Virus record (IMG/VR): IMGVR_UViG_3300032046_000009
Length of the DNA stretch: 64,000 bases
From: a virus
Lineage: Duplodnaviria > Heunggongvirae > Uroviricota > Caudoviricetes
Reading direction: 5' to 3' (one strand)
The position numbers and the translations under genes were made by a program. The notes under the pieces are model-generated. The model had not been told where the DNA came from, made no database searches, and saw nothing but the letters and a program-made list of their open reading frames with translations. Shown here in pieces: positions 6,261-61,020 of this stretch (the first letter of the stretch is position 1; each line of letters starts with the position of its first letter).

Positions 6261-6389
6261 TGAGTAGAACGGGCGAAGGGAAAGCGCGAGAAAGGACGGT
6301 GAAAAAATGGAACAATATCCCTTCGCCCTTGATAGAGTAGTATGTCAAACGGGTATATAAAGGTTGTGGTAGAAAGACCATGCTCGAAT

Positions 6390-6617
6390 CTAGTGTTCGA
6401 CTTTATAGATTCCATAGAGCAGTACCAATATTCCAACAGGGACACCCAAAAATAGAAGCGGTGAAAATAGCGCACCAAAAGTAGCAGAAAAAGCGAAAAT
6501 GAAAATTCCACCCAGAATTGCCCCTATACTTTGGGTTAGAGGGTCACGTATGACTTCGATGGTTCTTGTGTAGAGCCACTTAAAGAATCCTATTTTTTGC
6601 TTGACCATCTTGTTCAC
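6390..6617 (-). CDS. small membrane protein (75 aa, 2 predicted TM helices)
   Basis: track ORF; hydrophobic stretches; promoter box 6641-6675. Confidence 0.5.
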   Translation of the reverse strand: MNKMVKQKIGFFKWLYTRTIEVIRDPLTQSIGAILGGIFIFAFSATFGALFSPLLFLGVPVGILVLLYGIYKVEH

Positions 6618-6671
6618 TTGATAATAACAACAACACCGAGCTATATAAAGGTTTCCTAAGAACGTCCATGC

Positions 6672-6809
6672 TCAAAATTCAATGTGAACTTTGAGTATTC
6701 CAGAAAGTATTAGAGCTATTACAACTACGAAAAAGGCTATCGGGGCAAATGCCATGATTATGCCAGCGTTCTCTTTTACTTTCTTAATCACGGTTTTTAG
6801 TGTTATCAT
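6672..6809 (-). CDS. small membrane protein (about 45 aa, 1 TM) with approx 105-nt structured 5 prime leader
   Basis: hand-translated; leader 6810-6915 has hairpins GGAAAC-AA-GGTTTCC and CGTCC...GGACG; promoter box 6941-6980. Confidence 0.3.
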   Translation of the reverse strand: MITLKTVIKKVKENAGIIMAFAPIAFFVVVIALILSGILKVHIEF

Positions 6810-7165
6810 TTTAGACCACTTAGATTAGCGCGGAACACGGACGATTCTCCAATAAGCGTCCATCACTCGTCAGCTAAGGACGTAGTTTGGAAACCTTGTT
6901 TCCGTGCTCATACGAGTAATACAATAATCAAACAACTATATAAAGATTGTGGTAGAAACATCATACTCAAAAAAAGAGAGTTTTAGAGAAATTGTTTATT
7001 CTCTGTCCGTATCTGAATGTCAATGTCCGTAACGAGTATTTCAATGCTGTCTATGTTTTGTTGTTTCTTGCGTCTTTTAGTCTTTACGGCATCTTTTAAG
7101 AGCTTTATGACGTATCGAGCTTGTTTCGGGGTTATTTTGACCTTAAACTCTTTGTCTATCATGGC

Positions 7166-7513
7166 TTAAGCGTCCTTCAAGTAAAGCGTATATCCGACTG
7201 AGAACCATCCCGTTTGGCAGAAGCCAATAATAACGGTTTCTCCGCGCGTTTCGCACTCTTTTATCTTGTCTTTCAGCAATTCGGTCATTGCTTTCGGGTC
7301 TGTTCCAGATTCACCCATAGTTGCTATCCATCCAGAATGAAGGTGTTCATTTTGAAGCCCTGTGCCTGAACGGGTCGTAATTTTGTCGTCATTTCCTAGT
7401 TCAATAGCGTGGTAGCCCCGTTTCTTTGCCAGCGCGTCTAATCTGTCATAGTCTTGGAAAACATTGCAATGGACGGGTGGGAATTTGTCTTTTGATGTTA
7501 GGAAGTTCTTCAT
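7166..7513 (-). CDS. hypothetical protein (115 aa)
   Basis: track ORF, operon with 7525..7914. Confidence 0.5.
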   Translation of the reverse strand: MKNFLTSKDKFPPVHCNVFQDYDRLDALAKKRGYHAIELGNDDKITTRSGTGLQNEHLHSGWIATMGESGTDPKAMTELLKDKIKECETRGETVIIGFCQTGWFSVGYTLYLKDA

Positions 7514-7524
7514 TGCTCAGTCAC

Positions 7525-7914
7525 CTATTGATGTCCGTCTTGAATATTCTGGAAAACTTCAATGAATCCGTGCATGTGAACGGCACACGCGAATAACTCA
7601 TAGATTCCATAGTATGACGCAAAGTTGTCATAACCAACACCCGAATCTACGAAGATTCTGGGTCGCTTTTGGACATTGCCCTTCTCTGTGAGTCCCGCTA
7701 GAACAACGACACGTTTTTCTGGGTTCTTTAGAAGATATTTTTCTAATTGTTCTCTTGCCTCTTTGCCGAAGTTGTCCTCAATGTTCGCTAGGTTCAAGTA
7801 TGTCAGCTTAGAGTATCGTTCAGATGGTTGTGCTGGATATTGGTTTTCGAGCCATGACTCTGAGGGTTTAACGTTCTTCGATGTCAGCTTTTCCTTTAAC
7901 TCTTGTAACTTCAT
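7525..7914 (-). CDS. hypothetical protein (129 aa)
   Basis: track ORF; promoter box 7948-7984. Confidence 0.5.
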   Translation of the reverse strand: MKLQELKEKLTSKNVKPSESWLENQYPAQPSERYSKLTYLNLANIEDNFGKEAREQLEKYLLKNPEKRVVVLAGLTEKGNVQKRPRIFVDSGVGYDNFASYYGIYELFACAVHMHGFIEVFQNIQDGHQ

Positions 7915-8149
7915 AGTTTCAACCTTTGAAGAGTAGTGTTCGCCGTCCTATATAAAGGTTCGCTAAGAACGAACGTGCTCAAAATTTTAGGGGGGTCTTG
8001 GCTAGTGCGTTTCGCCGTGACCCTAGTTTTATTTAATGTAGAGGTTGAAATTTGCCCTATGTCGTATCGCACCGCATAAGGATTTTTCAACGTGCGGAAT
8101 AGACATATACACACCGAAGTATATAAACTTTCGCTAAGAACAACCATAC

Positions 8150-8533
8150 TCAGAGAGGAATAACACCTAGCCATTTATAAACTTCGGTGTTAATTTCAGC
8201 CATACCCGAACCCGTCCATACGTTGTGAGGAATAGAAGTATGAAGAGACTCTGGAATGAAAATAACGTGTGATTTATCGATGTGGTGTCCTTCTGAACCG
8301 TTAAAAGGTGCGTTTAGAATAATAGAGCCTAATTCTCGGCGTTTAGCTTGAATCCTAGCTTGCGTTTTCTTGTGATAAATTCGATGTTCTCTCTCATATT
8401 TTCTCTCATAGTTTGGGTTTTCTAATCTCCATTTCCTCTTATATAACTTTACCTCTTTCTTATGTTTCAAACGCCAATTCTTGTAATATGTAATACGTTT
8501 TTCTCTTGAATCTGTGAGCGTCATTTGATTCAC
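8150..8533 (-). CDS. HNH-like nuclease-motif protein (127 aa), paralog of 9378..9704
   Basis: basic N-terminus; shared C-terminal block GxxxHHID...IPxxLHxSIxHxVWTGxGMAEIN with the paralog; promoter box 8119-8152. Confidence 0.4.
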   Translation of the reverse strand: MNQMTLTDSREKRITYYKNWRLKHKKEVKLYKRKWRLENPNYERKYEREHRIYHKKTQARIQAKRRELGSIILNAPFNGSEGHHIDKSHVIFIPESLHTSIPHNVWTGSGMAEINTEVYKWLGVIPL

Positions 8534-8579
8534 ATTAAACTAAATGTTAAACGTGCTTATAAAGGTTTCGGTAAAAGTT

Positions 8580-8830
8580 AGTTGGAACACGGGGGAGAGT
8601 GTGCCCCCGTGTTCTCGGACGTGGTTTGTGGTTTTTTGTCAGTTGAAGCACAAGTTGGTGGAATGCCCCGTGTACGGGACAAACCTTCGGTCTTGTGCGG
8701 TTCCGTTCTTTGTCGCTTATTTCGAACGTAACCCTAGCGACTATGAAGGGTCGGCAAGTTTGTGAGCGTATAGCTCTTTGGTCTTGCGCGCCCTTTGTTT
8801 AGACGCAAGCGCGTCATGTATTATTGAGAT
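8580..8830 (-). ncRNA. candidate structured RNA (GC-rich, ORF-less, minus promoter at 8840-8870)
   Basis: perfect hairpin GAACACGGGGG-N8-CCCCCGTGTTC at 8588-8618; palindromic GACGCAAGCGCGTC; no credible ORF. Confidence 0.25.
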
Positions 8831-8870
8831 GTCAAACGACTATATAAACTTTTCGGGAGAAAGACCATGT

Positions 8871-9266
8871 TTATTGTCTGGGTTTGTTTGCCCTTTCTCT
8901 AAAATCGTCTGTTTCTTGTTGTGTGAAAACTTTATCAATAGCTGGAAGTCTATCGCTCTTTACATAACCATGTAAAAGGTTTCTCTCTTCTACATATTCA
9001 TTATCGCTTTCAGCGTTCAAGTTGTGAGAAATAGCTGATAAACTTTCGTATGGAAGAATTCGGTTTAATACTTCATAAATTGCAACTTCATTGAATTCGT
9101 GAACGAACAACTCAGCACCAATATCATCAGCGATTATACTGTCAATGGAATAGATAACTTTGGTAATTTTAGTATCATATCTTGAAATAGTCCCAGAAGC
9201 CAAAGCTGTTCCATCGAGTTCAGCGTTATCGAAGTAAATTTTCTCCGTGTTCATCGCGTTCACCAA
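8871..9266 (-). CDS. hypothetical acidic protein (about 127 aa from ATG 9254)
   Basis: track ORF; promoter box 9291-9331 flanked by two palindromic sites. Confidence 0.5.
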   Translation of the reverse strand: MVNAMNTEKIYFDNAELDGTALASGTISRYDTKITKVIYSIDSIIADDIGAELFVHEFNEVAIYEVLNRILPYESLSAISHNLNAESDNEYVEERNLLHGYVKSDRLPAIDKVFTQQETDDFRERANKPRQ

Positions 9267-9286
9267 TTAATCAACTGATTAATCAG
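9267..9286. promoter_or_regulatory. palindromic site TTAATCAACTGATTAA(TCAG), between TATA and start of 8871..9266
   Basis: operator-like position downstream of TATA. Confidence 0.6.
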
Positions 9287-9331
9287 TACAGCGCGCTATA
9301 TAAAGTTTCGCCTAGAACGTCCATGTTCGAG

Positions 9332-9347
9332 TTAATCAACTGATTAA
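9332..9347. promoter_or_regulatory. palindromic site TTAATCAACTGATTAA, upstream of the promoter box
   Basis: TTAATCA-NN-TGATTAA family. Confidence 0.6.
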
Positions 9348-9377
9348 AAATTCGCTAAAAACCACTTGTCGCCACGT

Positions 9378-9704
9378 TTATGTGGTAAGCCATTCGAAAA
9401 CTTTATCATTTATTTCTGCCATACCCTGACCTGTCCAAACGCAATGATGAATAGAAATATGAAGTTCTCTGGGAATATAGATAACACATTCAAAATCTAT
9501 ATGATGAGCAACAGAGCCAATAAATCTCCCATTAAAAGGGTCAAACCCTAATTCTCGCCGTTTTGCATTCTTCATTTTAGTTCGCTCTGGGTGTTTTTTT
9601 CCCCACATTTTTATTTGTTCTCGTTGTCTCTTTTTTTGTGATTCAGTTTTCTCTTTTATTTCAACGTCAAAATTTCCAATAGACTTTAATCGCATCTGAA
9701 TCAT
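9378..9704 (-). CDS. HNH-like nuclease-motif protein (108 aa), paralog of 8150..8533
   Basis: HHID...H...WTGQGMAEIN block; TATA at 9725-9740. Confidence 0.4.
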   Translation of the reverse strand: MIQMRLKSIGNFDVEIKEKTESQKKRQREQIKMWGKKHPERTKMKNAKRRELGFDPFNGRFIGSVAHHIDFECVIYIPRELHISIHHCVWTGQGMAEINDKVFEWLTT

Positions 9705-9745
9705 CTAAAGATAAAATAGTAGAAGTTGCTTATAAAGGTTATGGT

Positions 9746-9961
9746 TTATGTAAATTGAACCTGTTCTATGTCTTTCTTTTTGATGATTTTTTCGAAACAG
9801 TCAGGGCAGAGCCACGTTAAAGTTATGCCAATTTTTCCTCTTTCTTGTACTTTTCCTTTCAAACGATAAACTTTTAGGCTGTTTTTCCAACAATTAGTGC
9901 AACTATAATAGCTTATTGATGAAATACAAATATTATAATCGGTTTTTGTTAGTTGAATCAT
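9746..9961 (-). CDS. VxFT-tail family, Cys-rich; terminal member of array 1 (tail EQVQFT, TAA stop)
   Basis: track ORF; CxxC pairs; no downstream overlap and a TAA stop. Confidence 0.6.
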   Translation of the reverse strand: MIQLTKTDYNICISSISYYSCTNCWKNSLKVYRLKGKVQERGKIGITLTWLCPDCFEKIIKKKDIEQVQFT

Positions 9962-10200
9962 GTAAACTCTACCTTCTCTTTGCTGTTGAGAAAATCCTTA
10001 AACCACTTTTCCTTTTCCCATTCTTCAATGGGCGTATGAAAACCTAAAAGCGTCCCATGTTCTTTGTCAAACCTTTTTGAAAAATATCTCTTCCATTCTT
10101 CGTTACAACTTTCGCAGAGAACAGCCAATAATAGTTTAATTGGAAATTGACCGCTAACTATTCTTTTGCATTTTCTACAACGTCCTTTAAATTTTGTCAT
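9958..10200 (-). CDS. VxFT-tail family, Cys-rich (KEKVEFT)
   Basis: track ORF; ATGA junction at both ends. Confidence 0.6.
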   Translation of the reverse strand: MTKFKGRCRKCKRIVSGQFPIKLLLAVLCESCNEEWKRYFSKRFDKEHGTLLGFHTPIEEWEKEKWFKDFLNSKEKVEFT

Positions 10201-10426
10201 GTAAATTCAACCGTTTCCCGTTCACTCTTCCAATACTCACATGAACAACCTAAACGATAAGAATGTCTAGGACTACCTAACGGAGTTTTCACGTCCCTTA
10301 AAAATCCTGTAGCTTTCCCGTTCGGTTCAGTTAAGTTAGGTTGTGAGCGCATCTCTGTGCATTTATAATAAATCTTGTCGAGATTCCTCTTGTTCGAACA
10401 GTTAAAGCAACCTTTCTCTTTCAAGT
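10197..10426 (-). CDS. VxFT-tail family (RETVEFT); TTG start overlapping upstream ACTTGA (track start 10493 is an over-extension)
   Basis: CFNC...YKC...GCSC motifs; TTGA junction. Confidence 0.55.
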
Positions 10427-10660
10427 GAAATTGACCTTCTCTTTTGTTGTTACTTTGCGTTTTAATAGCCACTTTTTGAAAAAAGACTCCCAAGTATTAT
10501 CTCTTCTATCGTGAAAGAAGTCATGTCGTTCTTGTGATTTTTCCCACAAAATACCATGTGAGTCGCAAAGATAAAGTTTTTCCTCAGTCTGTATATCGTG
10601 ATAATTTGCATAACCTTTTTTACCGCAAATACAACACTTTTTACGGTTTGAATTTATCAT
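10421..10660 (-). CDS. VxFT-tail family, Cys-rich (KEKVNFT)
   Basis: track ORF. Confidence 0.6.
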   Translation of the reverse strand: MINSNRKKCCICGKKGYANYHDIQTEEKLYLCDSHGILWEKSQERHDFFHDRRDNTWESFFKKWLLKRKVTTKEKVNFT

Positions 10661-10836
10661 GTGAACTCGACCTGTTCTTTTTCGTTAGCCTTTTTATAAC
10701 AAACATTTAGGGTATTGCCTTTGAATCCTCTTTCTATTGAACATGGTTTGCAATAACACACGTTCGCGCTCAATTTATGCAAACTATCACATATATTATT
10801 GCAAGTGAATCTCTTTCCACAAACTTTACAAATCAT
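10657..10836 (-). CDS. VxFT-tail family (58 aa, EQVEFT), CxxCGKxFxC...CYCxxC subfamily
   Basis: hand-translated; below the 60-aa track cutoff; ATGA junctions. Confidence 0.45.
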   Translation of the reverse strand: MICKVCGKRFTCNNICDSLHKLSANVCYCKPCSIERGFKGNTLNVCYKKANEKEQVEFT

Positions 10837-11051
10837 GTGAACGTCACCGTTTCCCGTCCCTTTAGACGGTTAATAATCTCTCGCGCCTTCATTTTGTCTA
10901 AGAGTTCCATTATCTCTGGGTTATCGGAAAGTAACTTGTCTATGCGTTCGCCTTGCTCTCTGAGCCTGTCTAGCTCGTACATCATACAATTAAAGCATAA
11001 TTTCTCGTTAATTCGTTGTTTGAACTCGTTTCCACATTTAGAACAAATCAT
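10833..11051 (-). CDS. VxFT-tail family (RETVTFT); likely start ATG 11051
   Basis: track ORF 10833..11087, start revised to the ATGA junction. Confidence 0.55.
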   Translation of the reverse strand: MICSKCGNEFKQRINEKLCFNCMMYELDRLREQGERIDKLLSDNPEIMELLDKMKAREIINRLKGRETVTFT

Positions 11052-11194
11052 GTGAAACAGACCTTTTCTCTTCCTTTGTTGTTGCATTGCTTACACATTC
11101 TTGAACCTATCTTCTTTGCATCCGCATAGTTTTTAACGGGAATATTGAGAGGTCTGCCACATTTTGAACACGGTATAACGAGAACGCCCGTCAT
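11047..11194 (-). CDS. VxFT-tail family (48 aa, REKVCFT)
   Basis: hand-translated MTGVLVIPCSKCGRPLN... Confidence 0.45.
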
Positions 11195-11406
11195 GTGAAT
11201 AACACCTTCTCTTTTGGCTCTGGGGTTTTATATAGTTTGGTTCCTCGCGCTTTCATTTGAGAATTAAGTTCTTGACAACATTTATCAATTTCATCATAAT
11301 CAATACTGTTTTCGTGACATTTATCGTGCATCTTGCATTCCGTACACAAATCCTCATAATCGTACTCGATATAACCGTTATCGTCTATTGTTGTCATGTG
11401 AAACAT
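11191..11406 (-). CDS. VxFT-tail family (KEKVLFT), Cys/His-rich
   Basis: track ORF. Confidence 0.6.
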   Translation of the reverse strand: MFHMTTIDDNGYIEYDYEDLCTECKMHDKCHENSIDYDEIDKCCQELNSQMKARGTKLYKTPEPKEKVLFT

Positions 11407-11588
11407 ACCTTCTCCTTTTGTTGTAATTCGATTAAATCTGTATCAGATACAACATACCTTTCGGTTTTATATCTTATATCAATGGTTCTGTTTGACATAA
11501 TTCTTGTAATTTTAACAAATGAACCTTTGGGGCAATGCCTAAAGCCAGCGTATTTTAGCTTTGCCTTATCGCCAACTTGAAACGTCAC
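11394..11588 (-). CDS. VxFT-tail family (KEKVCFT), GTG start in a GTGA junction
   Basis: track ORF. Confidence 0.55.
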   Translation of the reverse strand: MTFQVGDKAKLKYAGFRHCPKGSFVKITRIMSNRTIDIRYKTERYVVSDTDLIELQQKEKVCFT

Positions 11589-11704
11589 GAGAAAATCACC
11601 CGTTCTTTTCTTCTGTCTAGCCAGCGATTAAACTCTGCCGTATGAATGAAACATCTAAGTTTTCCTGTATCTTTGTCGAACACTATTATAGCACAGTCAG
11701 TCAT
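11585..11704 (-). CDS. VxFT-tail family variant (38 aa, tail ERVIFS with S=TCG)
   Basis: hand-translated; TCGTGA junction giving a GTG start downstream. Confidence 0.4.
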   Translation of the reverse strand: MTDCAIIVFDKDTGKLRCFIHTAEFNRWLDRRKERVIFS

Positions 11705-11994
11705 GTAAACGTCACCTTTTCCCTTTTGTCGTATTCTGTTTTTAAACTGTCCTTTAAAAGCCATCCATTCGGATTTTCTCTCATAAATTGTTCAGCATGA
11801 CTTTTTGCCTCTTCATAAGTGTTAAAGATTCCCTCAGTATCGTATTTTCCTGTTTTATCATCTCTGAGCCAAATCTCTGTGCACTCACATTCATTGGGAG
11901 TATGAGTTTCACAATCTTCATAAACGTCTAAACTAAGAAATTCGGTTCCTATTCTCCACGAATTAGTTCCATCCCAGACCCATTTACCCGTCAT
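11701..11994 (-). CDS. VxFT-tail family (REKVTFT); start ATG 11994
   Basis: track ORF 11701..12042 trimmed to the ATGA junction. Confidence 0.55.
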   Translation of the reverse strand: MTGKWVWDGTNSWRIGTEFLSLDVYEDCETHTPNECECTEIWLRDDKTGKYDTEGIFNTYEEAKSHAEQFMRENPNGWLLKDSLKTEYDKREKVTFT

Positions 11995-12188
11995 GTAAAG
12001 TTCACCTTTTCCTTTGCGTCTGGGTATCTTTGCGCTTTGCATTCTTTATGTTTATAGTTAAGAAAAGGCAATAAGCATAGAGGTTTATAGGGGTTCTTTC
12101 TGTGAACCTTATGAGGACATTCTGCCTCATCAATGCAAATAGGGACATCGTGATTTTTCAGAAGAGCCTTTAAGTTTAAATCCGTCAC
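11991..12188 (-). CDS. VxFT-tail family (KEKVNFT), first gene after a approx 150-nt leader
   Basis: track ORF; leader 12190-12345 contains the palindrome near the TSS. Confidence 0.55.
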   Translation of the reverse strand: MTDLNLKALLKNHDVPICIDEAECPHKVHRKNPYKPLCLLPFLNYKHKECKAQRYPDAKEKVNFT

Positions 12189-12352
12189 GCTTTCAACCCC
12201 TCTCTAAACTTGCCATGTGCGAACGGTTGACCGTGATGTGAGCCTGTCGGCAGACTTGAATAGAAACGTCTAAGTTTTCGGACGTTCAACGGCAGACCCC
12301 CGTGACTTTGCGTTTTGCGAGTTTGCGCTTTATCCTATGAAGTTTTCCCGTA

Positions 12353-12368
12353 TTAATCACCTGATTAA
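12353..12368. promoter_or_regulatory. palindromic site TTAATCACCTGATTAA at the predicted TSS of the 11991..12188 transcript
   Basis: lies about 25 nt downstream of the TATA of promoter box 12372-12415. Confidence 0.55.
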
Positions 12369-12386
12369 CTAGAACAACACCGTGAC

Positions 12387-12635
12387 TTATAAAGGTTGTT
12401 CCAGAAAGACCATTCTCGAAATACTGTTCCGTATCTTACAACTTTCGAGTTTAAGCCCATATTCAGCCTCTAATTGCTTCGCCCTCTTCGCCAGCCCGTC
12501 CTTATAGGATTTAACGCCCAGAATGAGCAGACAATCTTTCATCCATCCCTCATAAACGATTAGTTTGTCCCCCTCAATTCGAACTCCAAATCCAATATGC
12601 CCAAGTTTTCGAGCTACGTTCTTCAAATCAGTCAT
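12387..12635 (-). CDS. hypothetical protein (82 aa), no VxFT tail; 3 prime end overlaps the next promoter box
   Basis: track ORF. Confidence 0.5.
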   Translation of the reverse strand: MTDLKNVARKLGHIGFGVRIEGDKLIVYEGWMKDCLLILGVKSYKDGLAKRAKQLEAEYGLKLESCKIRNSISRMVFLEQPL

Positions 12636-13561: not shown

Positions 13562-13593
13562 TTTCTTTCACGCTCGAATTTTTGTCTAAGTTT

Positions 13594-14300: not shown

Positions 14301-14352
14301 CTATAAATACAGCGTCCTATATAAACGTTTGCTAGGAATCTCCATTCTCATT

Positions 14353-15419: not shown

Positions 15420-15452
15420 TTTGGTTTTCCTCAAAAAAGTGGAATTTTGGGT

Positions 15453-16698: not shown

Positions 16699-16756
16699 TC
16701 CTATTTAAATGTTTGCTTAGAAAGACCATGTTCATTTTAGTTAATCAACTGATTAA
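16699..16756 (-). promoter_or_regulatory. promoter box (TATTTAAAT TATA, GACCATGTTCA upstream element) plus upstream palindromic site TTAATCAACTGATTAA (16741-16756)
   Basis: near-identical architecture repeated at 18963-19023 for the VWA gene. Confidence 0.6.
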
Positions 16757-18962: not shown

Positions 18963-19023
18963 GCGTAGCTTATAAAGGTTTCCCCAGAACGACCATGCTC
19001 GTTTTAGTTAATCAACTGTTTAA
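18963..19023 (-). promoter_or_regulatory. promoter box plus upstream near-palindrome TTAATCAACTGTTTAA
   Basis: duplicate of the 16699-16756 architecture. Confidence 0.55.
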
Positions 19024-19488: not shown

Positions 19489-19744
19489 TTAAATGCGCCT
19501 CGCACCGCGTCCCGTTTGGCAAAAGCGACCATTGTGAAAGCTGTGCTGGAAATTGAGCATGGCGTTTTTAGGGAAAGATTTATAAGCTACCGTGTTGTAG
19601 TATTCACAAAGAGGCACAAATATGTTTCCGTTTGATACTCTGGGTTTCATAATAGGTTTAATTGTTCTTGCAAAAGTAGTTAAAACTTTCAGGCGACCCG
19701 TTGGTTGTCCCGACCCGTCAGAACTTGAGGAAGCACTAGAGGAC

Positions 19745-23585: not shown

Positions 23586-23639
23586 TCAGTTATGTCTATG
23601 TGTTCGTCCTATATAAATGTATGCCTAGAACGAACGTAC

Positions 23640-23876
23640 TCAGCAAACGTAACCTCTAAGTCTTTCCTTCCTTTTTTCGGGGTTCTCAACCATTTCTTCC
23701 GAAAACGCCAACTCGGAAACGGCTTGTTTCTCCGCATTAAATTGTCGTGTGAATATCGGGGTCGGATTATCGCAGATGAAAAGAATCGCCGTTCCCTTCA
23801 TTCGTCTAAGTTCTGCATTCGGGTCTTTCTTTTTCTTTTGGGCTTCAATGTAAATCGAAGATTCAAGCGTTGGCAT
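23640..23876 (-). CDS. hypothetical protein (78 aa), last gene of a five-gene operon of small proteins
   Basis: track ORF. Confidence 0.45.
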   Translation of the reverse strand: MPTLESSIYIEAQKKKKDPNAELRRMKGTAILFICDNPTPIFTRQFNAEKQAVSELAFSEEMVENPEKRKERLRGYVC

Positions 23877-24556: not shown

Positions 24557-24605
24557 GAGTATATTAGCATCGTCCTATATAAACCTTAGCCCAGAACTAC
24601 CATAC

Positions 24606-24893
24606 TCAAGTGAACTGAACTACTTCTTTTATAGCGTTCCTTATATCGCCTAGTGAAGTAATTTTAATATCCAAAATCATCTCATCTGCCATCTGTTGAA
24701 AGTGTTCTATCTCGCTTTCGTGTATCTCTTCAAATGAACATTTAGATATATGTTCTCCGTCATCGTAGTCATCTTCAAAAAACATAGAGCAAAGAGCACA
24801 TTCCTCTGAACCCCCACTTATACCCCCTCTAAATTTTACTGCAAGAGGGTCATTAGAATACGCAAGCCATCTTAAACTAACTTTACGTGTCAT
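24606..24893 (-). CDS. VxFT-tail family (KEVVQFT); stop embedded in the next promoter box
   Basis: track ORF. Confidence 0.6.
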   Translation of the reverse strand: MTRKVSLRWLAYSNDPLAVKFRGGISGGSEECALCSMFFEDDYDDGEHISKCSFEEIHESEIEHFQQMADEMILDIKITSLGDIRNAIKEVVQFT

Positions 24894-27736: not shown

Positions 27737-27799
27737 CTAATCTACCCTGAATTATTAATAGCATCGACCCTTATAAACCTTTGCCCTAAAACCCCATAC

Positions 27800-28090
27800 T
27801 CAAGTGAAGGACACCTTTTCTGCCCCATTCTTTGCCTTTTCCTCTTCTTGGCGTTTGTCATCTAAATCTCCTAGATAACAGTCAATAGTATCCCAAGTTA
27901 CACCTATTGTTGCGTCATGTCTATGTTCCATTATGTCAATAATTTCCTCTGCTTCATTTTTGGTAATTTTCATACCCCTGTCTTTTGCCCGTCCCAGAAC
28001 GTCCTCAACATTCCAAATTATTAGACAGATATGTTCGTTTGGCTTGTTATAATTCTGAATGTGCTTTATTGCATCTTCTCTTGTTGTCAT
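27800..28090 (-). CDS. VxFT-tail family singleton (AEKVSFT), non-Cys
   Basis: track ORF; promoter box 28110-28150. Confidence 0.55.
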   Translation of the reverse strand: MTTREDAIKHIQNYNKPNEHICLIIWNVEDVLGRAKDRGMKITKNEAEEIIDIMEHRHDATIGVTWDTIDCYLGDLDDKRQEEEKAKNGAEKVSFT

Positions 28091-28248
28091 ATTAGGATAT
28101 ATTATCAGCGTCCCTTATAAACTTTTGCCTAGAACATCCATGCCAATATAACCGTCTGTCCAAGCCCTTGTGCCATCAAAAGCCACTTTTTTAAACAGTT
28201 GATTAACTCGACTTTGGAAAAAATTCCACGGTCTTTCCAATAAATTAA

Positions 28249-29115: not shown

Positions 29116-29202
29116 TTTTCTCGACCTTACTAGAATACTATAACAATCCTCTATATAAATGTTTACTAAGAAAACCCATATACAAAAAAAGAAAGGAAGA
29201 TT

Positions 29203-30099: not shown

Positions 30100-30167
30100 T
30101 TATTCTCGACCTTACTGAAAGTAAGTTATCAGCGTCACTTATAAACCTTCGCTAAGAAAGTCCATGT

Positions 30168-30437
30168 TCAAGTAAATTGAACACGTTCGGGTTCGTTCCA
30201 GATTTCAACTCGTCTTTGCCAAGCTAAACGGCGAACCCCTAAATTAAGTGAAATAGAAGGATAATAAGATTCTCCGCTATGAAGTAGTGCCACGTTGTTG
30301 TGAACAATCGCACCATTATATAGTGCAAGAGAATGTATAAACGCATCTCTGTGAAGTTTCTCGTGTTCCTCTCTAGCAAGAAGAATAAATTTTGTTTTGC
30401 ATCCACATTGCAGATATTGTTTTACTTTTTCACTCAC
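30168..30437 (-). CDS. VxFT-tail family singleton (PERVQFT)
   Basis: track ORF; stop embedded in a promoter box. Confidence 0.55.
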   Translation of the reverse strand: MSEKVKQYLQCGCKTKFILLAREEHEKLHRDAFIHSLALYNGAIVHNNVALLHSGESYYPSISLNLGVRRLAWQRRVEIWNEPERVQFT

Positions 30438-32514: not shown

Positions 32515-32807
32515 CTTCAGTCACTATCTATGTTTGTTTCTTCGACAACTATTTCTTTATCCTTCTCAACGATTTCGCAAACTTTTCCGAATTGAGTTGT
32601 GTAGCCCAATATCTTCTTTGTCATTTCAACCACTTTATACTTATGTTATAACAGCGTAACTAATAAAGGTTTCCCTAGAAAGACCATACTCAATCACGTT
32701 TGAACGGTTCTGGGGGTTTGTGCTTCTCATACTTCAAGTGAGCGAATATAACCACACCGAGAAAGTAGAGAGCCATCAAGCCGTAGAATTGAAGTTCGGT
32801 CAACATA

Positions 32808-35054: not shown

Positions 35055-35223
35055 GCATCGTGACTAACGTATCGTAGCCATGTCTTTGTTGAATTTGTGT
35101 TATCCAAATCTTCTCGGACTTGGTATCTATCTTTTTCGTATCTCTGTCAACCATTTCAATCACTTTACTTCTATACTATCTCAATGTGACTTATAAACTT
35201 TGCGTTAGAACGTCCATGCTCGA

Positions 35224-35834: not shown

Positions 35835-35879
35835 TACACACTAAGATAGCAATGTCCCTTATAAACTTTCCCTAAGAAT

Positions 35880-36640
35880 TGCCATGCTCAGTTTCGAAGT
35901 TAGTTCGAAAAAGTATATGAATTAAATTTAAGATTTAATGGGACTGTTATATAATTTTTCATGGTCTTTTCCCATAGGTTATAAACTATTCCATAAATCC
36001 TAAATATAATCCTTGATAGATTTCGGAGTTAGTTCGAAACATCAAAAAGTCCATACTTTTACCATAGACTATTCGAACAATTTTCGAAAAGAAAATATAA
36101 TTATTTAGGATTTTATGGATTAAAATAACTATCCGATTGCCCAGAGAAGCCATAAGAATGCCCCGTTTGACAAAAGGACATAGATATAAAAAATATTAAA
36201 ATTATATTTTAGAATTTTAATCAGGTGATTAACCGTGGTCGTATATTGCATGGACAATATAGGATAATTAATCAACTGATTAAAAATTCGAAAAATCGGG
36301 TGAGTCGCGCTCGCGCAAAATTTTGAGCATTCGAAAAAAAACTAACGTAGAAAAATTGAAAATGAAACATCCAAAACGGAACAGCCGTTAGGGGGTTTCG
36401 CTTCGTCCACTTGAACGGGACGGGCACGATTAGGCTAGAAGTACGTGTTTCTTTCTACACGCATTTTAATTCTATATACCAATTCATTAAATATATATAA
36501 TGGAAACAGTAATCGTTGTTTCAAGTCCTATTCTAGCATTCAGACGATTCGTTGTGGTGTAGTTTTCCATGCTATCACCCATAGCTGAGAAGTAGTATGT
36601 GCAAACTACTATATAAAGGTTGTGGTAGAAGAACCATGCT
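35880..36640. repeat. AT-rich repeat-rich intergenic region (TTCGAA-containing direct repeats, two palindromic sites at 36227-36242 and 36278-36293)
   Basis: direct repeat TTCG(A/G)AGTTAGTTCGAAA at 35893 and 36022; no ORFs; long AT tracts. Confidence 0.5.
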
Positions 36641-36786
36641 CAAGTAAAGGTTACTTTCTCCACGTCCATTTTGTGCATACAGTCATAACAAAGCCACTTT
36701 CTTCCTTTAAGAACTACCACAATCTGTTTTCTTCCGCATCCGTCACACGTTAATCCTGTATAAGCCATAGTGATTTTGGCATTCAT
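36640..36786 (-). CDS. VxFT-tail family (49 aa, EKVTFT), terminal member of array 6; stop lies inside a promoter box
   Basis: hand-translated MNAKITMAYTGLTCDGCGRK... Confidence 0.45.
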   Translation of the reverse strand: MNAKITMAYTGLTCDGCGRKQIVVVLKGRKWLCYDCMHKMDVEKVTFT

Positions 36787-40193: not shown

Positions 40194-40325
40194 TAATCGG
40201 TCACTACCTAGAGATATAGCTTTCCCCTATATAAAGGTTTAGTAAGAACTCCCATGCTCAAAACCCTATGAGTATCGCTGGTTTGCATGGACTTCTCCAT
40301 GCCGAAGGTCATAAAAGGAACTATT

Positions 40326-45906: not shown

Positions 45907-46024
45907 TTTCCATCTGGGAATAATAATGTCTTTCGTCCCTTATAAACCTTGCGCTAGAAACTCCATACTCAATTTTTCCGCAACCGAAAGACTTAAATAC
46001 TTATAATCACATATTGTATTATAA

Positions 46025-50814: not shown

Positions 50815-50904
50815 TACTGTTTCACCTATCTACACACTAATACGCATTCATTCCTTATAAACTTTGTGGTAGAACGCCCATGCTCAAAATTTCGAACATA
50901 TCAA

Positions 50905-55238: not shown

Positions 55239-55487
55239 ATTTCAATCACTATAAAGGTATTACGCACTCGTCCTATTTAAACTTTGCGTCAGAAACTCCA
55301 TGCTCAACTTCTAATCAATGAGAGGGTCAACCATTCATTGACGAGAACCATAATGTCATCTGGGTATTTTGGAAACTCTGGAATATCTAAAAATAGAAAC
55401 AACTCGATAAAGAAGTAAGGCTTTCGGTCTGTCCAATAAATTCTTTGAACCATCGAAGGACGTATTCTAAGTTCTTTTATCAATCGA

Positions 55488-56618: not shown

Positions 56619-56710
56619 TATACATCAATACTCCAACTACTATAATCTCTCCGTCCCTTATAAACCTTACGCTAGAATAACCATGCTCAATTTAAAGGTT
56701 ATGATGCCAG

Positions 56711-58514: not shown

Positions 58515-58744
58515 TATTCATTAACCTCTACTGATTTGGCTCCCATAACGATATAGGCTTTGAATGCTTCATTTATTTCCCTAAGAGCTTGTTCCATTAT
58601 CCAAAGATTATAGGATTCGCCTATTTTTCTTTGTGCCCATCTTCTCAAGCTCTCGTAATCCCTTATAGTTATTTTACCCATTTTTAGGTCACTATCCTAT
58701 TATATCAGTCGTCCTATATAAATCTTGCGTAAAAAACACCATGC

Positions 58745-59680
58745 TCAATATTTGAAATCTTTCACATAGGTAGCCCACGGACGGTTTTTTGCCGTTTCAT
58801 TAGACATAGCACCCAAATGAGCGAACTTTATTCTGAAATCAAGATGAACTGAATATCCCAAACTACCAGCTAAAAGACAAAATCCAAAGTCTTCGCTTGC
58901 CCCCTCTTCTTGTTTAGCCAAATCATGGCGTATAGGAACAAAATTCAATCTTTTATCATTAAGAATTTTTCTGCTTAACGCCAAAGCACCAGCACTTGTG
59001 CAAGTCGCTTTGTATATCTTTCCCTCGTCATAATCTTGATATTTAAAGCCGAGAACATTAAGATTAAGTTGTCTGGCTTTTCTTATCTCTTTTGCAATTC
59101 CTCGTTTTATAATCGGAACAGTCCCTTTCGGCATGTCCTTAATAGGAGCATCAATAGACCATACGGTTGCTACCATAGTTTCTTGTGGAAAATCCCTAGT
59201 ATATGACCCGCCACAAATATCGAGATTATTGTCGTAATAAATATTATCCAAAAACCTTTGAATAAAATCTTTATCCTGTGGGATACAGTCATCATCGAGA
59301 AATATCGCTATGTTTGCACCAAATGTTCTTGCCCGTGTTAAAAGCAGTTGACGAACATTAGCTATTGGCTCATAAGGTTGTCCCTTAGCGGCATCTTCTT
59401 TGAACCAAATACGAATAACTTCGTGTGGCAACTGAAACTTTTCAATCAGTTCAAGAGTATTATCTACGCTATTGTTTTCGCAGAAGATGACTTTTTCAGG
59501 CTGTGGGTCTAAGCGATAAAGTGCTCGTTCGAAAACTTTCCAGCAACGTCTTGTAGTATTGTAAATAGGCACAAGAAGAACTACATCTTTAGCTACTTTC
59601 CCTAAAAATGGGGTATCATCTCTAACCCAAAGAAGAGTGAAAGAAACTTTGAAGCCCTCAATTTCTATTAGTGGCAACAT
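58745..59680 (-). CDS. family-2 glycosyltransferase (GT-A fold)
   Basis: CENNSVDNTLELIEKF and LDDDCIPQ (DxD) motifs; 311 aa; promoter box 58715-58750. Confidence 0.6.
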   Translation of the reverse strand: MLPLIEIEGFKVSFTLLWVRDDTPFLGKVAKDVVLLVPIYNTTRRCWKVFERALYRLDPQPEKVIFCENNSVDNTLELIEKFQLPHEVIRIWFKEDAAKGQPYEPIANVRQLLLTRARTFGANIAIFLDDDCIPQDKDFIQRFLDNIYYDNNLDICGGSYTRDFPQETMVATVWSIDAPIKDMPKGTVPIIKRGIAKEIRKARQLNLNVLGFKYQDYDEGKIYKATCTSAGALALSRKILNDKRLNFVPIRHDLAKQEEGASEDFGFCLLAGSLGYSVHLDFRIKFAHLGAMSNETAKNRPWATYVKDFKY

Positions 59681-59966
59681 TGATTATTTTTCTTCCCCAT
59701 TGTATTCTATTCCATCCACGTTCATTGAAATAGGTAATAGCATAACAAAGTCCTTCTATCCCAATTGCTACGCCTAAAGATTCCGCTGGACGTTGGAAGA
59801 TAAGGTCGAGAACTATGAAGTCAAATACTACTTCCAACATCTTTGCGGTTACACCTTTAAGGACTGTACGCAAACGACTTTCGCAGACCTTATGCTCGTG
59901 GTCGCATTTGGACATTAGATTGCCTCTGTTTCTTCTTCGCTTGGAATGGTTTCTTTGCGCCAGCAT
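59658..59966 (-). CDS. hypothetical protein (102 aa)
   Basis: track ORF. Confidence 0.45.
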   Translation of the reverse strand: MLAQRNHSKRRRNRGNLMSKCDHEHKVCESRLRTVLKGVTAKMLEVVFDFIVLDLIFQRPAESLGVAIGIEGLCYAITYFNERGWNRIQWGRKIINVATNRN

Positions 59967-60276
59967 CTCTAACTAATTCTTCTGCCGTCTTTGGTTTAGT
60001 CTTGTATGAGATGACTTCTGCACCAACTTTGAATTTCTGCCACGGATGGTCTTGGCATATGAAATATTTGGTGAGTCCTTCTCGGCATTTAGGCATGAAA
60101 TCTTTGCGGCATTTCAAGCATTTACGCATACCTTTCTTTTTCTCGGTCAAGATGAATGGCTTAGATTGACTTCTTTTACAGTTAGGGCATTCGGATAATC
60201 CCAAGTTAGTTATGAGTTTTCTGGTTCGCAGTAATCTAATACATTTTGGTTCTGGACATCTAGGGTTCAAACTCAT
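59890..60276 (-). CDS. basic zinc-ribbon protein (128 aa)
   Basis: CPNCKRS...CLKCRKD. Confidence 0.5.
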   Translation of the reverse strand: MSLNPRCPEPKCIRLLRTRKLITNLGLSECPNCKRSQSKPFILTEKKKGMRKCLKCRKDFMPKCREGLTKYFICQDHPWQKFKVGAEVISYKTKPKTAEELVRDAGAKKPFQAKKKQRQSNVQMRPRA

Positions 60277-60285
60277 TCACCACCT

Positions 60286-60516
60286 TTATTCTTCGCTCCA
60301 TTGATTGAAATGCGGTATTACCAATTGTATTGGTTTCTGCGATAATTCAATGGCTTTTTTATTATCCACTAGCCAGCTAAGAACTTTTAGATAGATAGTC
60401 TCATATGGGGTTCTCGGCATCTTCTTCTCTTGTAACTTACAAAGCAAATAGTATGCTTCTCGGTCAACAAGATAAGTTTTTTCTCCGATGTAAACCATTG
60501 ACATATAATCTGGCAT
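60286..60516 (-). CDS. hypothetical protein (76 aa)
   Basis: track ORF. Confidence 0.45.
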   Translation of the reverse strand: MPDYMSMVYIGEKTYLVDREAYYLLCKLQEKKMPRTPYETIYLKVLSWLVDNKKAIELSQKPIQLVIPHFNQWSEE

Positions 60517-60524
60517 AAAACCAT

Positions 60525-60824
60525 CTACTTCGTTTGTCTATTGGCGTATGTGAGAATCCCATGTAATTTGCCATTCCCGTTGTTGATTGTGCAGTAGAGA
60601 CATTCCTCAATAACGAATAGCTTTCCGTCAATATGTTGTGTGTACTTCATACGTTTATGTCGTCCACAAGTAAGACACGGTTCTTCAACATTAACTACAA
60701 CGATTCGCCCATCCATTTCCTTGATTTTTCGTTTCTCGTCTTCGCTTATGTTTTCTAAAGGAATCCGCATACAACTTCGGATTTGTTTTATCATTTTTTT
60801 CTTACCTTGAATATATACACGCAT
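60525..60824 (-). CDS. zinc-ribbon protein (99 aa)
   Basis: CLTCGRH...CLYC; promoter box 60820-60860. Confidence 0.5.
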   Translation of the reverse strand: MRVYIQGKKKMIKQIRSCMRIPLENISEDEKRKIKEMDGRIVVVNVEEPCLTCGRHKRMKYTQHIDGKLFVIEECLYCTINNGNGKLHGILTYANRQTK

Positions 60825-61020
60825 TCGTCCTATATAAACCTTGCCCTAGAAAGACCATGCTCAACTTTCGAGTCTCTGTTCTTTTCCAAGATGTCTCAGA
60901 ATAATAAATTGATGATGAAATCCCTCAACTGGTGGAATAAGATTTTCGCCCTTCATTTTCCATTCTATACTATATCTATCGGTTGCATGAATCCAAAGTC
61001 CATCATATTCGAAACTCATA

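What the first reader, a model, noticed from the sequence alone, without database searches (positions are those of the whole stretch)
6351..60860. About 30 copies of an extended, highly uniform promoter box (approx 45 bp) shared by unrelated genes
In gene orientation the consensus is TTGAGCATGG-N5-TTCTWRSSMAAGGTTTATAWAGGACGCTGNCAT, that is an upstream GAGCATGG element, then BRE/TATA, then a conserved downstream stretch. Copies sit at 6351, 6641, 6941, 7948, 8119, 9291, 12372, 14316, 16699, 18963, 23608, 24570, 27768, 28110, 29142, 30130, 35188, 35858, 36611, 40228, 45940, 50855, 55275, 56655, 58715 and 60820, among others. This uniformity suggests a single dedicated transcription programme, for example a virus or element-encoded factor recognising GAGCATGG, rather than ordinary host promoters. 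Several gene stops, including tail-family stops, are embedded in the CTCAAG end of the box.
Basis: seen in the sequence. Interest (0 to 1): 0.65.

Follow-up and report, generated by a model that had tools for sequence, protein, structure and literature searches.

The report
Shared promoter box of an archaeal virus
About 30 operon heads in this large uncultivated archaeal virus-like element share one rigid, strongly conserved element placed just upstream of an archaeal core promoter. It looks like a dedicated co-regulated gene class, a kind of arrangement already known from a few cultivated archaeal viruses.

Summary
Thirty copies (28 on the minus strand, 2 on the plus strand) of TTGAGCATGG-N3-TTCT-N5-AA-NN-TTTATAWR lie between 5.2 and 60.9 kb. 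The composite pattern gives 29 matches against 0.02 expected. Each copy heads an operon of small genes, with the ATG about 40-47 nt after the TATA box.

The box is an archaeal BRE/TATA core plus a separate upstream element:
- The upstream element carries about 23 bits, more than the core.
- Its spacing to the TATA box never varies.
- It is either present or absent, with nothing in between.
- In orthologous promoters of diverged relatives it is as conserved as the TATA box, while the spacers change freely.

A second promoter class puts a different, partly dyad-symmetric element in the same position, and a third class has nothing there. The downstream GGACG stretch is shared by all classes.

The box is missing from more distant relatives, from sampled Bathyarchaeia chromosome and, as a multi-copy feature, from 185,579 species genomes. 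It does occur in a second, small integrated element in a Bathyarchaeia genome.

My best reading is a class-specific regulatory site for an unidentified factor that docks beside TFB/TBP. Close precedents are the SIRV2-type early regulatory sequences and the halovirus HF2 intergenic repeats. I file it as a new member of a known kind, of moderate interest.

The parts
60831..60864 (-). Class A box (TTGAGCATGG-N3-TTCT-N5-AA-NN-TTTATATA) heading the operon 60525-58745
   Evidence: the orthologous promoter is conserved in 8 relatives
58715..58748 (-). Class A box
56657..56690 (-). Class A box
55274..55307 (-). Class A box (TATA variant TTTAAATA)
50854..50887 (-). Class A box (ACCAC subtype)
45939..45972 (-). 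Class A box heading a long operon of tail-family genes
40228..40261 (-). Class A box
36610..36643 (-). Class A box (ACCAC subtype), with no ORF close downstream
35858..35891 (-). Class A box
35190..35223 (-). Class A box
32660..32693 (-).
30138..30171 (-). Class A box upstream of the SPFH/Band 7 gene
29152..29185 (-). Class A box (degenerate octamer GTATATGG)
28114..28147 (-). Class A box (TTGGCATGG)
27770..27803 (-). Class A box
24576..24609 (-). Class A box; the tail-family stop TGA lies inside TTGAG
23610..23643 (-). Class A box (variant GAGTACGTT)
18969..19002 (-). Class A box upstream of the 575-aa protein with a vWA-type DxSxS motif; a palindrome lies just upstream
16702..16735 (-). Class A box upstream of the MoxR-type AAA ATPase; a palindrome lies just upstream
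14318..14351 (-). Class A box flanked on both sides by TTAATCANNTGATTAA
12386..12419 (-). Class A box
9297..9330 (-). Class A box flanked on both sides by TTAATCANNTGATTAA
8841..8874 (-).
8120..8153 (-). Class A box
7949..7982 (-). Class A box (variant GAGCACGTT)
6937..6970 (-). Class A box (ACCAC subtype) with a long leader
6642..6675 (-). Class A box
6354..6387 (-). Class A box (ACCAC subtype) facing the ORF-poor region 5400-6300
5166..5199 (+). Class A box on the plus strand, with no ORF downstream
19553..19586 (+). Class A box on the plus strand
4847..4884 (+). Comparator: class B promoter (GTA-N5-GTTCTACA-...-BRE/TATA), with a different element in the same upstream position
   Evidence: 9 more copies in L051
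5039..5076 (-). Comparator: class B promoter
640..3910 (-). Comparator: promoters with the same BRE/TATA and GGACGCTGACAT but no upstream element. The TATA box starts at 655, 987, 1308, 1535, 1867, 2290, 3534 and 3901.

Best explanation
The box is a composite archaeal promoter. It has a consensus-strength BRE/TATA core (AA-NN-TTTATAWR). Immediately upstream sits a separate, asymmetric 15-nt module (TGAGCATGG-N3-TTCT), which occupies positions -25 to -10 relative to the first T of the TATA box.

I propose that this module is the recognition site of one sequence-specific factor. The factor is most likely encoded by the mobile element, and it would sit directly beside TFB/TBP on the promoter. In this way it would mark about 30 operons (some 150 mostly small, unrelated genes across 55 kb) as one co-regulated class, probably a temporal one. 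By analogy with the known position rule for archaeal regulators, binding upstream of the BRE usually activates by helping to recruit TFB/TBP.

Shown here: the element's reality, its rigid register, its all-or-none distribution, purifying selection on it, its restriction to one lineage, the existence of alternative promoter classes, and its absence from host-type chromosome.

Inferred: that a protein binds it, that the protein is encoded by the element, the sign of regulation (activation), and the timing.
For: 1. Statistics: 29 composite matches against 0.02 expected.
2. The upstream module carries 22.8 bits against 18.5 bits for BRE/TATA.
3. The upstream score is bimodal, at least 13.9 in 30 promoters and at most 5 in 21. 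High-scoring modules essentially never occur without a core promoter.
4. The gap from octamer to TATA box is exactly 16 nt in 22 of 22 window copies and 117 of 123 copies in relatives.
5. In orthologous promoters of relatives at 70-97% DNA identity, mismatch rates are 0-4% at A-T-G (-20 to -18), 2% at TT (-13 and -12), 0% at the BRE AA and 7% in the TATA box. By contrast they are 38% in N3, 40% in NN and 17.8% overall. This is position-specific selection, not recent copying.
6. A second class with a different element at -22 to -15 gives 9 matches in L051 against 0.09 expected, and 2 clean matches in the window (a third, 2-mismatch hit at 6100-6133 has no TATA core). A third class has no element. 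All three share the same core and occupy different genome blocks.
7. A sub-lineage shifts the consensus to GAGCATGTT (L029, L032). More distant relatives (protease 43-60% identical, RNR 71%) lack the element altogether.
8. Core strength is equal in class A and the other promoters (17.9 against 17.5). The module therefore adds information rather than rescuing a weak core.
9. There is no multi-copy occurrence in 185,579 species genomes. There is none in about 100 kb of Bathyarchaeia chromosome, whose own promoters are weak and heterogeneous.
10. Precedent: virus-specific conserved regulatory sequences around a strong BRE/TATA core head the early genes of SIRV2 and many other archaeal viruses (PMC11065993). 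Halovirus HF2 class I intergenic repeats carry a conserved alpha motif upstream of the BRE (PMC8707807).
Against: - No candidate factor was found. Pfam scans of essentially all window ORFs gave no TFB, TBP, HTH, RHH or RNA polymerase hit. Only about 84 kb of a contig of about 150 kb could be read.
- The core is already consensus-strength, so an activator is not obviously needed. In HF2, mutating the analogous alpha motif did not change basal promoter activity (PMC8707807).
- The box also occurs in a small, unrelated integrated element (L004, L036, L025) that shares no detectable protein with the window. This argues against a simple model in which each element encodes its own factor.
- There are no transcription data, so the start sites and the timing are inferred.
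Confidence: 0.45

Rival explanations
1. The module is an operator for a repressor or silencer. One factor would keep the whole 55-kb block off, for example during a carrier or lysogenic state. Alternatively it would damp strong early promoters, in the way Aca-type regulators act on anti-defence genes.
For: - The core promoters are already consensus-strength, so negative control is the more economical use of an extra site.
- The SIRV2-type regulatory sequences are linked to the regulator Aca8. In SMV2, inverted repeats near the BRE are read as repressor sites (PMC11065993).
- Mutating the HF2 alpha motif did not lower promoter activity (PMC8707807).
- A relative of the box-bearing small element is integrated next to an integrase.
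Against: - Archaeal repressors usually overlap the BRE/TATA box or the start site. This module lies wholly upstream of the BRE.
- It is asymmetric, unlike typical dimeric repressor operators.
- A separate palindrome (TTAATCANNTGATTAA, 25 copies) already sits at operator-like positions on some of the same promoters.
Confidence: 0.2
2. The module is an extension of the basal promoter. It would be read by an alternative general factor, meaning a TFB or TBP paralogue of the host or of the element. Class A and class B would then be promoter classes in the sigma-factor sense.
For: - The spacing to the TATA box is absolutely invariant. This is typical of elements read by one complex, not of distal activator sites.
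- TTCT directly abuts the BRE.
- Two alternative elements occupy the same position in different promoter classes.
- The sampled host locus encodes TFIIB-family proteins, as all archaea do.
Against: - No TFIIB or TBP domain was found in any window ORF.
- As far as I know, TFB reads only about 6-7 bp upstream of the TATA box, whereas the octamer lies 17-24 bp upstream.
- No host genes carrying the module were found.
Confidence: 0.15
3. The module is the site of a host transcription factor for a small host regulon, borrowed by several mobile elements.
For: - The box is used by two unrelated kinds of mobile element: the large element and the L004/L036/L025 integrative elements.
- These share no detectable protein.
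Against: - The exact-pattern scan of 185,579 species genomes returned only 4 single hits. Three are in bacterial MAGs and one is in the integrated element itself.
- No module was found in about 100 kb of Bathyarchaeia chromosome.
- The element is lost in close viral relatives. That fits a factor carried by the element better than a host factor.
Confidence: 0.1
4. The uniformity has no transcriptional meaning. It would be a relic of promoter-plus-cassette duplication, a recombination linker between gene cassettes, or a terminator for the upstream operon.
For: - Small-gene cassettes are shuffled between relatives.
- Thirteen upstream ORFs end inside the box.
- Some copies are preceded by T runs.
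Against: - Only the specified positions are conserved, while the spacers diverge at 38-40%. This excludes recent duplication or gene conversion.
- The register to the TATA box is fixed.
- Two copies on the plus strand have no upstream co-directional gene to terminate.
- There is no hairpin and no oligo-T of the archaeal terminator type inside the module.
Confidence: 0.05

Closest known systems
Virus-specific early-gene (anti-defence gene) regulatory sequences of archaeal viruses, first shown for SIRV2 (Bhoobalan-Chitty et al. 2024, PMC11065993)
   Same: Many small, unrelated, fast-evolving genes within one archaeal virus genome share a nearly identical strong BRE/TATA core. The core is embedded in flanking sequence that is conserved within the virus and differs between viruses. 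The paper infers that each virus encodes its own regulator.
   Different: - The conserved flank here is a discrete, asymmetric module of about 23 bits at a fixed 16-nt gap upstream of the TATA box.
- It heads operons rather than single genes.
- It covers about 55 kb of an element of about 150 kb.
- It coexists with a second class that uses another element in the same position.
- Early timing and an Aca8-like regulator were not tested here.
Halovirus HF1/HF2 intergenic repeats, class I (58 bp, 7 copies) and class II (29 bp) (Russ et al. 2021, PMC8707807)
   Same: Repeated intergenic promoter boxes with blocks of invariant bases: alpha upstream of the BRE, beta at the TATA box and gamma at the start site. 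They are conserved in sequence and position across the virus genus, and there are two classes of box in one genome.
   Different: - HF2 has 7 plus 2 copies, against about 30 here.
- HF2 promoter activity and start sites were measured; nothing was measured here.
- The HF2 conserved downstream (gamma) block is essential, whereas here the downstream stretch is weak and not class-specific.
- The host lineage and the sequences are unrelated.
Archaeal upstream activating sites next to the BRE: TFB-RF1 of Pyrococcus furiosus, Ptr2 of Methanocaldococcus jannaschii, GvpE of Halobacterium (from my own knowledge of the literature)
   Same: A regulator site placed immediately upstream of BRE/TATA, from which TFB or TBP recruitment is stimulated.
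   Different: - Those sites serve one or a few promoters, are often dyad-symmetric (Ptr2, GvpE) or compensate for a weak BRE (TFB-RF1).
- Here the module is asymmetric, serves about 30 promoters, and the cores are not weak.
- No binding protein is known here.
Phage T4 middle promoters with the MotA box (from my own knowledge)
   Same: This is a working analogy only. A virus-specific box at a fixed distance from the core promoter element defines a temporal gene class of a few dozen promoters in a large virus.
   Different: T4 uses the bacterial sigma-70 machinery and sigma appropriation by MotA/AsiA. There is no homology, and the transcription apparatus is different.

Membership tests
Archaeal BRE/TATA core promoter | An 8-bp A/T-rich TATA box (TTTAWATA type) with a purine-rich BRE directly upstream, including A at about -3 from the TATA box | tested here: met
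   TTTATAWR is preceded by an invariant AA at -4 and -3 in all 30 copies. BRE/TATA carries 18.5 bits.
Archaeal BRE/TATA core promoter | A transcription start about 25 nt downstream of the TATA box | not testable with these tools
   Indirect evidence only. The ATG lies 38-47 nt after the first T of the TATA box in most copies, with a GGTGA-type ribosome-binding site between them.
Virus-specific conserved early/anti-defence regulatory sequence (SIRV2 type, PMC11065993) | A near-identical strong core promoter shared by many genes of one viral genome | tested here: met
Virus-specific conserved early/anti-defence regulatory sequence (SIRV2 type, PMC11065993) | Conserved flanking sequence that is specific to the virus lineage | tested here: met
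   The upstream module is present in close relatives, shifted to GAGCATGTT in one sub-lineage, and absent in more distant relatives.
Virus-specific conserved early/anti-defence regulatory sequence (SIRV2 type, PMC11065993) | It precedes small, poorly conserved genes with unrelated sequences | tested here: met
   Most downstream genes encode 45-130 aa and have no Pfam hit. Some boxes head larger genes (SPFH, MoxR, GT2).
Virus-specific conserved early/anti-defence regulatory sequence (SIRV2 type, PMC11065993) | Expression immediately after infection, and anti-defence function | not testable with these tools
   No expression data are available and the host is uncultivated.
Virus-specific conserved early/anti-defence regulatory sequence (SIRV2 type, PMC11065993) | An associated regulator of the Aca8 type | not tested
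   No specific search with Aca8 was run. Pfam found no HTH or RHH domain in the window ORFs.
HF2-type intergenic repeat promoters (PMC8707807) | A repeated intergenic box of tens of bp containing BRE/TATA, conserved in sequence and position among related viruses | tested here: met
HF2-type intergenic repeat promoters (PMC8707807) | Demonstrated promoter activity and a mapped start site | not testable with these tools
   Requires experiments.
TFB-RF1-type activation site | A site directly upstream of a weak BRE, compensating for poor TFB binding | tested here: not met
   The position criterion is met, but the class A cores are as strong as the others (17.9 against 17.5). There is no inverse correlation between module score and core score (Spearman 0.06).
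Lrp/Ptr2- or GvpE-type UAS | A dyad-symmetric or repeated half-site architecture | tested here: not met
   TGAGCATGG-N3-TTCT has no dyad symmetry (read directly from the sequence). The class B element TGTTSWACA is partly dyad-symmetric.
Bacterial sigma-70 promoter (TTGAGC read as -35, TATATA as -10) | A 17 +/- 1 bp spacer between the -35 and -10 hexamers | tested here: not met
   The spacer would be 22 bp in every copy. The invariant AA-NN-TTTATA and the Bathyarchaeia context point to archaeal machinery.
Mobile miniature repeat (MITE-like) or recently duplicated cassette | Terminal inverted repeats or target duplications, or similarity extending through non-functional positions | tested here: not met
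   Spacer positions diverge at 38-40% between orthologues and differ among copies. No inverted termini were seen.

The most novel reading that the evidence does not exclude
The position at -25 to -10 acts as a promoter-class selector. Class A (TGAGCATGG-N3-TTCT) and class B (GTA-N5-GTTSWACA) would be read by alternative specificity factors encoded by the element, working like sigma factors for the archaeal TFB/TBP machinery. The unrelated small integrative elements of Bathyarchaeia (L004, L036, L025) would carry a single class A box in order to eavesdrop on the large virus's programme, either as satellites or as infection-triggered defence modules.
Probability: 0.1. Interest if true: 0.75.

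Novelty: new member of a known kind. Interest (0 to 1): 0.42.

Why it matters
If a dedicated factor reads this module, it would be a clean and information-rich pairing of cis-element and factor for transcription control in Bathyarchaeia. Bathyarchaeia are among the most abundant uncultivated archaea, and nothing is known about how their viruses regulate genes.

The box also has practical uses:
- It is a sequence tag (about 40 bits) that picks out related elements and their operon starts in metagenomes. It recovered about 40 contigs here.
- It partitions a genome of about 150 kb, almost entirely of unknown genes, into regulatory classes. In Sulfolobales viruses the same logic identified anti-defence genes (PMC11065993).
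- It supplies defined promoters for future in vitro work.

It is not a new principle, because repeated virus-specific promoter boxes are already documented in SIRV2-like viruses and in halovirus HF2.

Tried and rejected
1. No known RNA or tRNA explains the repeats. Rfam gathering thresholds and ARAGORN found nothing in the window.
2. No close annotated relative exists. A megablast of 20 kb against the phage collection found nothing, and tblastn with the protease gave one weak hit.
3. I looked for the binding factor. Pfam on about 170 window ORFs packed into pseudo-proteins and on the 10 largest ORFs, plus PHROGs, gave no TFB, TBP, RNAP, HTH or RHH hit. A phmmer comparison of ORFs from the small box-bearing elements against the window proteome gave only trivial zinc-ribbon similarity. 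The plus-strand gene conserved in many relatives (46025-46453) is an HNH homing endonuclease, not a regulator.
Only about 84 kb of about 150 kb was seen, and no structural genes were reached.
5. A literature search for the octamer string was useless, returning 1,627 unrelated papers. The Bathyarchaeia virus survey (PMC10541130) describes much smaller viruses and does not analyse promoters.
6. I rejected a sigma-70 reading (22-bp spacer), a MITE or duplication relic (the spacers are free to vary), and a terminator (the plus-strand copies have no upstream gene, and there is no hairpin or oligo-T).
7. I rejected restriction or methylation logic acting through the internal CATG, because CATG is not depleted (observed/expected 0.94).
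8. I rejected compensation for weak core promoters.

Full report

Yes. GAGCATGG occurs 13 times against 1.06 expected, 12 of them on the minus strand. The composite TGAGCATGG-N3-TTCT-N5-AA-NN-TTTATA, with up to 3 mismatches, occurs 29 times against 0.02 expected. A position matrix refined from the clear copies finds 30 promoters carrying the upstream element, 28 on the minus strand and 2 on the plus strand.

In gene orientation the consensus is WWTTGAGCATGG-N3-TTCT-N5-AA-NN-TTTATAWR, followed by a weaker GGACGMTG. The same sequences appear in independent ENA, JGI and Logan assemblies.

**Anatomy**

Almost all genes lie on the minus strand, and the boxes sit at the heads of tightly packed operons of small genes.

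- The start codon lies 38-47 nt after the first T of the TATA box in most copies, with a GGTGA or AAGGT ribosome-binding site between them.
- TTTATAWR preceded by an invariant AA at -4 and -3 is a textbook archaeal TATA/BRE. It is not a sigma-70 promoter: reading TTGAGC and TATATA as -35 and -10 would give a 22-bp spacer.
- The upstream module (-25 to -10) carries 22.8 bits, BRE/TATA carries 18.5 bits and the downstream stretch carries 7.3 bits.
- The downstream stretch is equally present in promoters without the module (6.2 bits). It is a general feature of this element's promoters, not part of the class-specific box.

**Evidence that the upstream module is functional and forms a discrete class marker**

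1. The upstream score is bimodal. Thirty strong core promoters score at least 13.9 and 21 score at most 5. High-scoring modules hardly ever occur away from a core promoter.
2. The gap between the octamer and the TATA box is exactly 16 nt in 22 of 22 window copies and in 117 of 123 copies in related contigs, with no +/-1 variants.
3. In orthologous promoters of relatives at 70-97% DNA identity, the specified positions are almost invariant. Mismatch rates are 0-4% at A-T-G (-20 to -18), 2% at TT (-13 and -12), 0% at the BRE AA and 7% in the TATA box. The spacers change at 38-40% against 17.8% overall. An alignment of nine orthologous copies of the 60838 promoter shows the same pattern, with unalignable flanks. 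The uniformity therefore reflects selection on defined positions, not recent duplication or gene conversion.
4. Core strength is the same with and without the module (17.9 against 17.5), and it does not correlate with module score. The module is not rescuing weak promoters.

**Other promoter classes in the same element**

Class A is confined to about 5.2-60.9 kb of the window.

- In window 1-5.1 kb and the next 10 kb or so of the source contig, promoters have the same core. Some have no upstream element (class C: 655, 987, 1308, 1535, 1867, 2290, 3534, 3901).
- Others have a different, partly dyad-symmetric element, GTA-N5-GTTSWACA, in the same position (class B). Class B gives 9 matches in L051 against 0.09 expected. 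The window gives 3 matches against 0.21 expected, but only two, at 4847-4880(+) and 5043-5076(-), are class B promoters. The third, at 6100-6133, has 2 mismatches and no TATA core.
- Upstream of the window's last box (60.9-64 kb plus a further 10 kb with Lon protease and sugar-nucleotide enzymes) there is no strong core promoter at all.

The element thus has at least three promoter classes arranged in blocks.

**What the element is**

- The window matches contigs of 86, 137 and 152 kb.
- Recognisable genes in the window are few: ParB-N, three GT2 glycosyltransferases, a trypsin-like protease, an RNA ligase, SprT-like and dual-specificity phosphatase domains, a KaiC-like ATPase, SPFH, and a MoxR ATPase next to a 575-aa protein with a vWA-type DxSxS motif. 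The flanks add dCMP deaminase, ribonucleotide reductase and Lon.
- Relatives are present in IMG/VR as viral genomes of 59-121 kb. One of them carries a eukaryotic-type topoisomerase IB, Ogg, a Rad51-like protein and ERCC4.
- GATC, CCGG and GGCC are completely absent from the window (141, 67 and 69 expected) and from its close relatives, the pattern expected from avoidance of restriction sites in a virus or other mobile element.
- No capsid gene was reached, so 'virus' rests on the IMG/VR classification and on gene content.

**Distribution of the box**

- The exact pattern is absent from IMG/VR. It occurs in 44 metagenome loci from lake sediment and peat. Most of these are syntenic relatives at 30-100% protein identity that carry several boxes each.
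- One sub-lineage (L029, L032) prefers GAGCATGTT.
- More distant relatives (protease 43-60% identical, RNR 71%) have BRE/TATA promoters but no module. The module is therefore a clade-specific invention.
- Across 185,579 species genomes the pattern gives only four single hits. That is about the chance level, and three of the four are in bacterial MAGs.
- The fourth hit (L004) is in a Bathyarchaeia MAG. It lies 62 nt upstream of a 209-aa gene in a segment that has an integrase and interrupts the conserved HMG-CoA synthase neighbourhood.
- That 209-aa gene has a 48% identical homologue in L036, which lies in the operon headed by a box there. A neighbouring gene has a homologue in the box-bearing L025. 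A 58-nt non-coding hairpin segment is shared with virus relatives.
- The box is thus real there too. A second, small integrative kind of element uses it, and Bathyarchaeia is the probable host.

**Host test**

About 100 kb of Bathyarchaeia chromosome around the same locus was sampled from five different contigs. One of these has an HMG-CoA synthase 96% identical to that of the L004 MAG. This sample contains no class A box. Its promoters are weak and heterogeneous (for example CTTAATAA, TTTATATG). GATC, CCGG and GGCC occur at normal frequency.

**Mechanism**

I commit to the following reading. The module is the binding site of one sequence-specific factor that sits directly beside TFB/TBP and defines a co-regulated, probably temporal, class of about 30 operons.

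- The fixed register argues for direct contact with the basal complex.
- The position upstream of the BRE favours activation, by the usual archaeal position rule.
- Lineage specificity and absence from host DNA favour a factor carried by mobile elements.

None of binding, sign of regulation or timing is shown. No candidate protein was identified. The rivals, in order of weight, are a repressor operator, an extended basal element read by an alternative TFB or TBP, a borrowed host regulon, and non-transcriptional explanations.

**Comparison with what is known**

The phenomenon has two close precedents.

- In SIRV2 and many other archaeal viruses, early or anti-defence genes share a virus-specific regulatory sequence around a near-identical strong BRE/TATA core, and the flanks differ between viruses (PMC11065993).
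- Halovirus HF2 has seven 58-bp class I and two 29-bp class II intergenic repeats with alpha (upstream of the BRE), beta (TATA box) and gamma (start site) blocks. These are proven promoters, conserved across the genus, and alpha was dispensable for basal activity (PMC8707807).

The present case differs in host lineage and in scale. It also differs in the discreteness and information content of the upstream module, in a second class occupying the same position, and in the sharing of the box with an unrelated integrative element.

**Verdict**

This is a new member of a known kind, with interest about 0.4.

Noticed in passing
window 9746-47576 (62 minus-strand ORFs, for example 41549-45906): Sixty-two small, often Cys-rich ORFs end in ...E-[K/V]-V-x-F-T-TGA. 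At nucleotide level the tail reads GAR AAG GTG CAA TTY AC[A/T] TGA, and the next gene starts at the ATG or TTG that overlaps the stop (ACATGA or ACTTGA). The tail therefore looks like an AAGGTG ribosome-binding site, a 9-nt spacer and an overlapping start/stop, which would give translational coupling. F and E vary synonymously, so some protein-level constraint remains. The integrase of the L004 element ends in ...PEKVDF.
   Followed up: partly
window 1679-56726 (25 sites, for example 9267-9282, 9332-9347, 14285-14300, 14357-14372, 16741-16756, 19008-19023): The 16-bp palindrome TTAATCA-NN-TGATTAA occurs 25 times against 1.1 expected. It often lies just upstream of a class A box (32-47 nt upstream of the first T of the TATA box, on the octamer side) or 25-40 nt downstream of it, over the start-site and leader region. 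It also occurs in the non-coding region 1.6-6.1 kb. It is probably the operator of a second, dimeric regulator acting on a subset of promoters.
   Followed up: partly
window 4847-4884 (+) and 5039-5076 (-); L051 7759-14191: A second promoter class has GTA-N5-GTTSWACA in the same upstream position as the class A module. There are 9 copies in L051 against 0.09 expected. Several are arranged back to back, and several are followed by no ORF. GTTCTA is common to many class A (-14 to -9) and class B (-22 to -17) elements, which I cannot explain.
   Followed up: partly
whole window; also L012-L061 relatives: GATC, CCGG and GGCC are completely absent from the 64-kb window (141, 67 and 69 expected) and from close relatives. 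Some relatives also lack CTAG. Sampled Bathyarchaeia chromosome contains all three. This is strong restriction-site avoidance.
   Followed up: partly
window 5400-6360, 6810-6944, 8525-8848 and 36250-36617: Class A boxes of the TTCTACCACAA...TTTATATA...GTTTGAC subtype (6361, 6944, 36617 and the similar 8848) are followed by more than 130 nt without an ORF. They may drive non-coding RNAs. Rfam finds nothing there.
   Followed up: no
window 4450-6300 and 1-110: This ORF-poor region has C-rich runs, several promoters on both strands and repeated AAGTTCAACTTT-like motifs. At the window start there are tandem CCGAAAC-N-TTTATATAC units. It may be an origin or a regulatory hub.
   Followed up: no
window 46025-46453 (+): An HNH endonuclease gene lies on the opposite strand. 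Its homologues sit at different positions in relatives (between different neighbours in L015, L023, L028, L029, L033 and L040), as expected of a homing endonuclease.
   Followed up: partly
window 15780-19023: The MoxR-type AAA ATPase (15780-16667) and the 575-aa protein with a vWA-type DxSxS motif (17211-18938) have twin class A promoters. These promoters resemble each other beyond the consensus, with the palindrome upstream and GCTGGCATCTATA downstream.
   Followed up: no
window 28435-29115 (-): A 226-aa predicted membrane-anchored protein is made largely of DRIVYV/EKIVYV-type short repeats. It lies next to the SPFH/Band 7 gene at 29203-30099.
   Followed up: no
L004 3500-8000 (Bathyarchaeia MAG JBEKKX010000005.1); L036; L025; L032 5624-5681: A small integrated element (209-, 177-, 163- and 82-aa genes plus a tyrosine integrase) is inserted next to the HMG-CoA synthase gene and carries one class A box. 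Homologues in L036 and L025 also lie near a box. A 58-nt hairpin-containing non-coding segment is shared with relatives of the large element.
   Followed up: partly
L069 (IMGVR_UViG_3300044799_000154) 6080-18786: A relative with a 71% identical ribonucleotide reductase encodes a eukaryotic-type topoisomerase IB, Ogg glycosylase, a ParB-N protein, a Rad51/KaiC-like ATPase and an ERCC4 nuclease. It has no promoter matching this window's core matrix.
   Followed up: no
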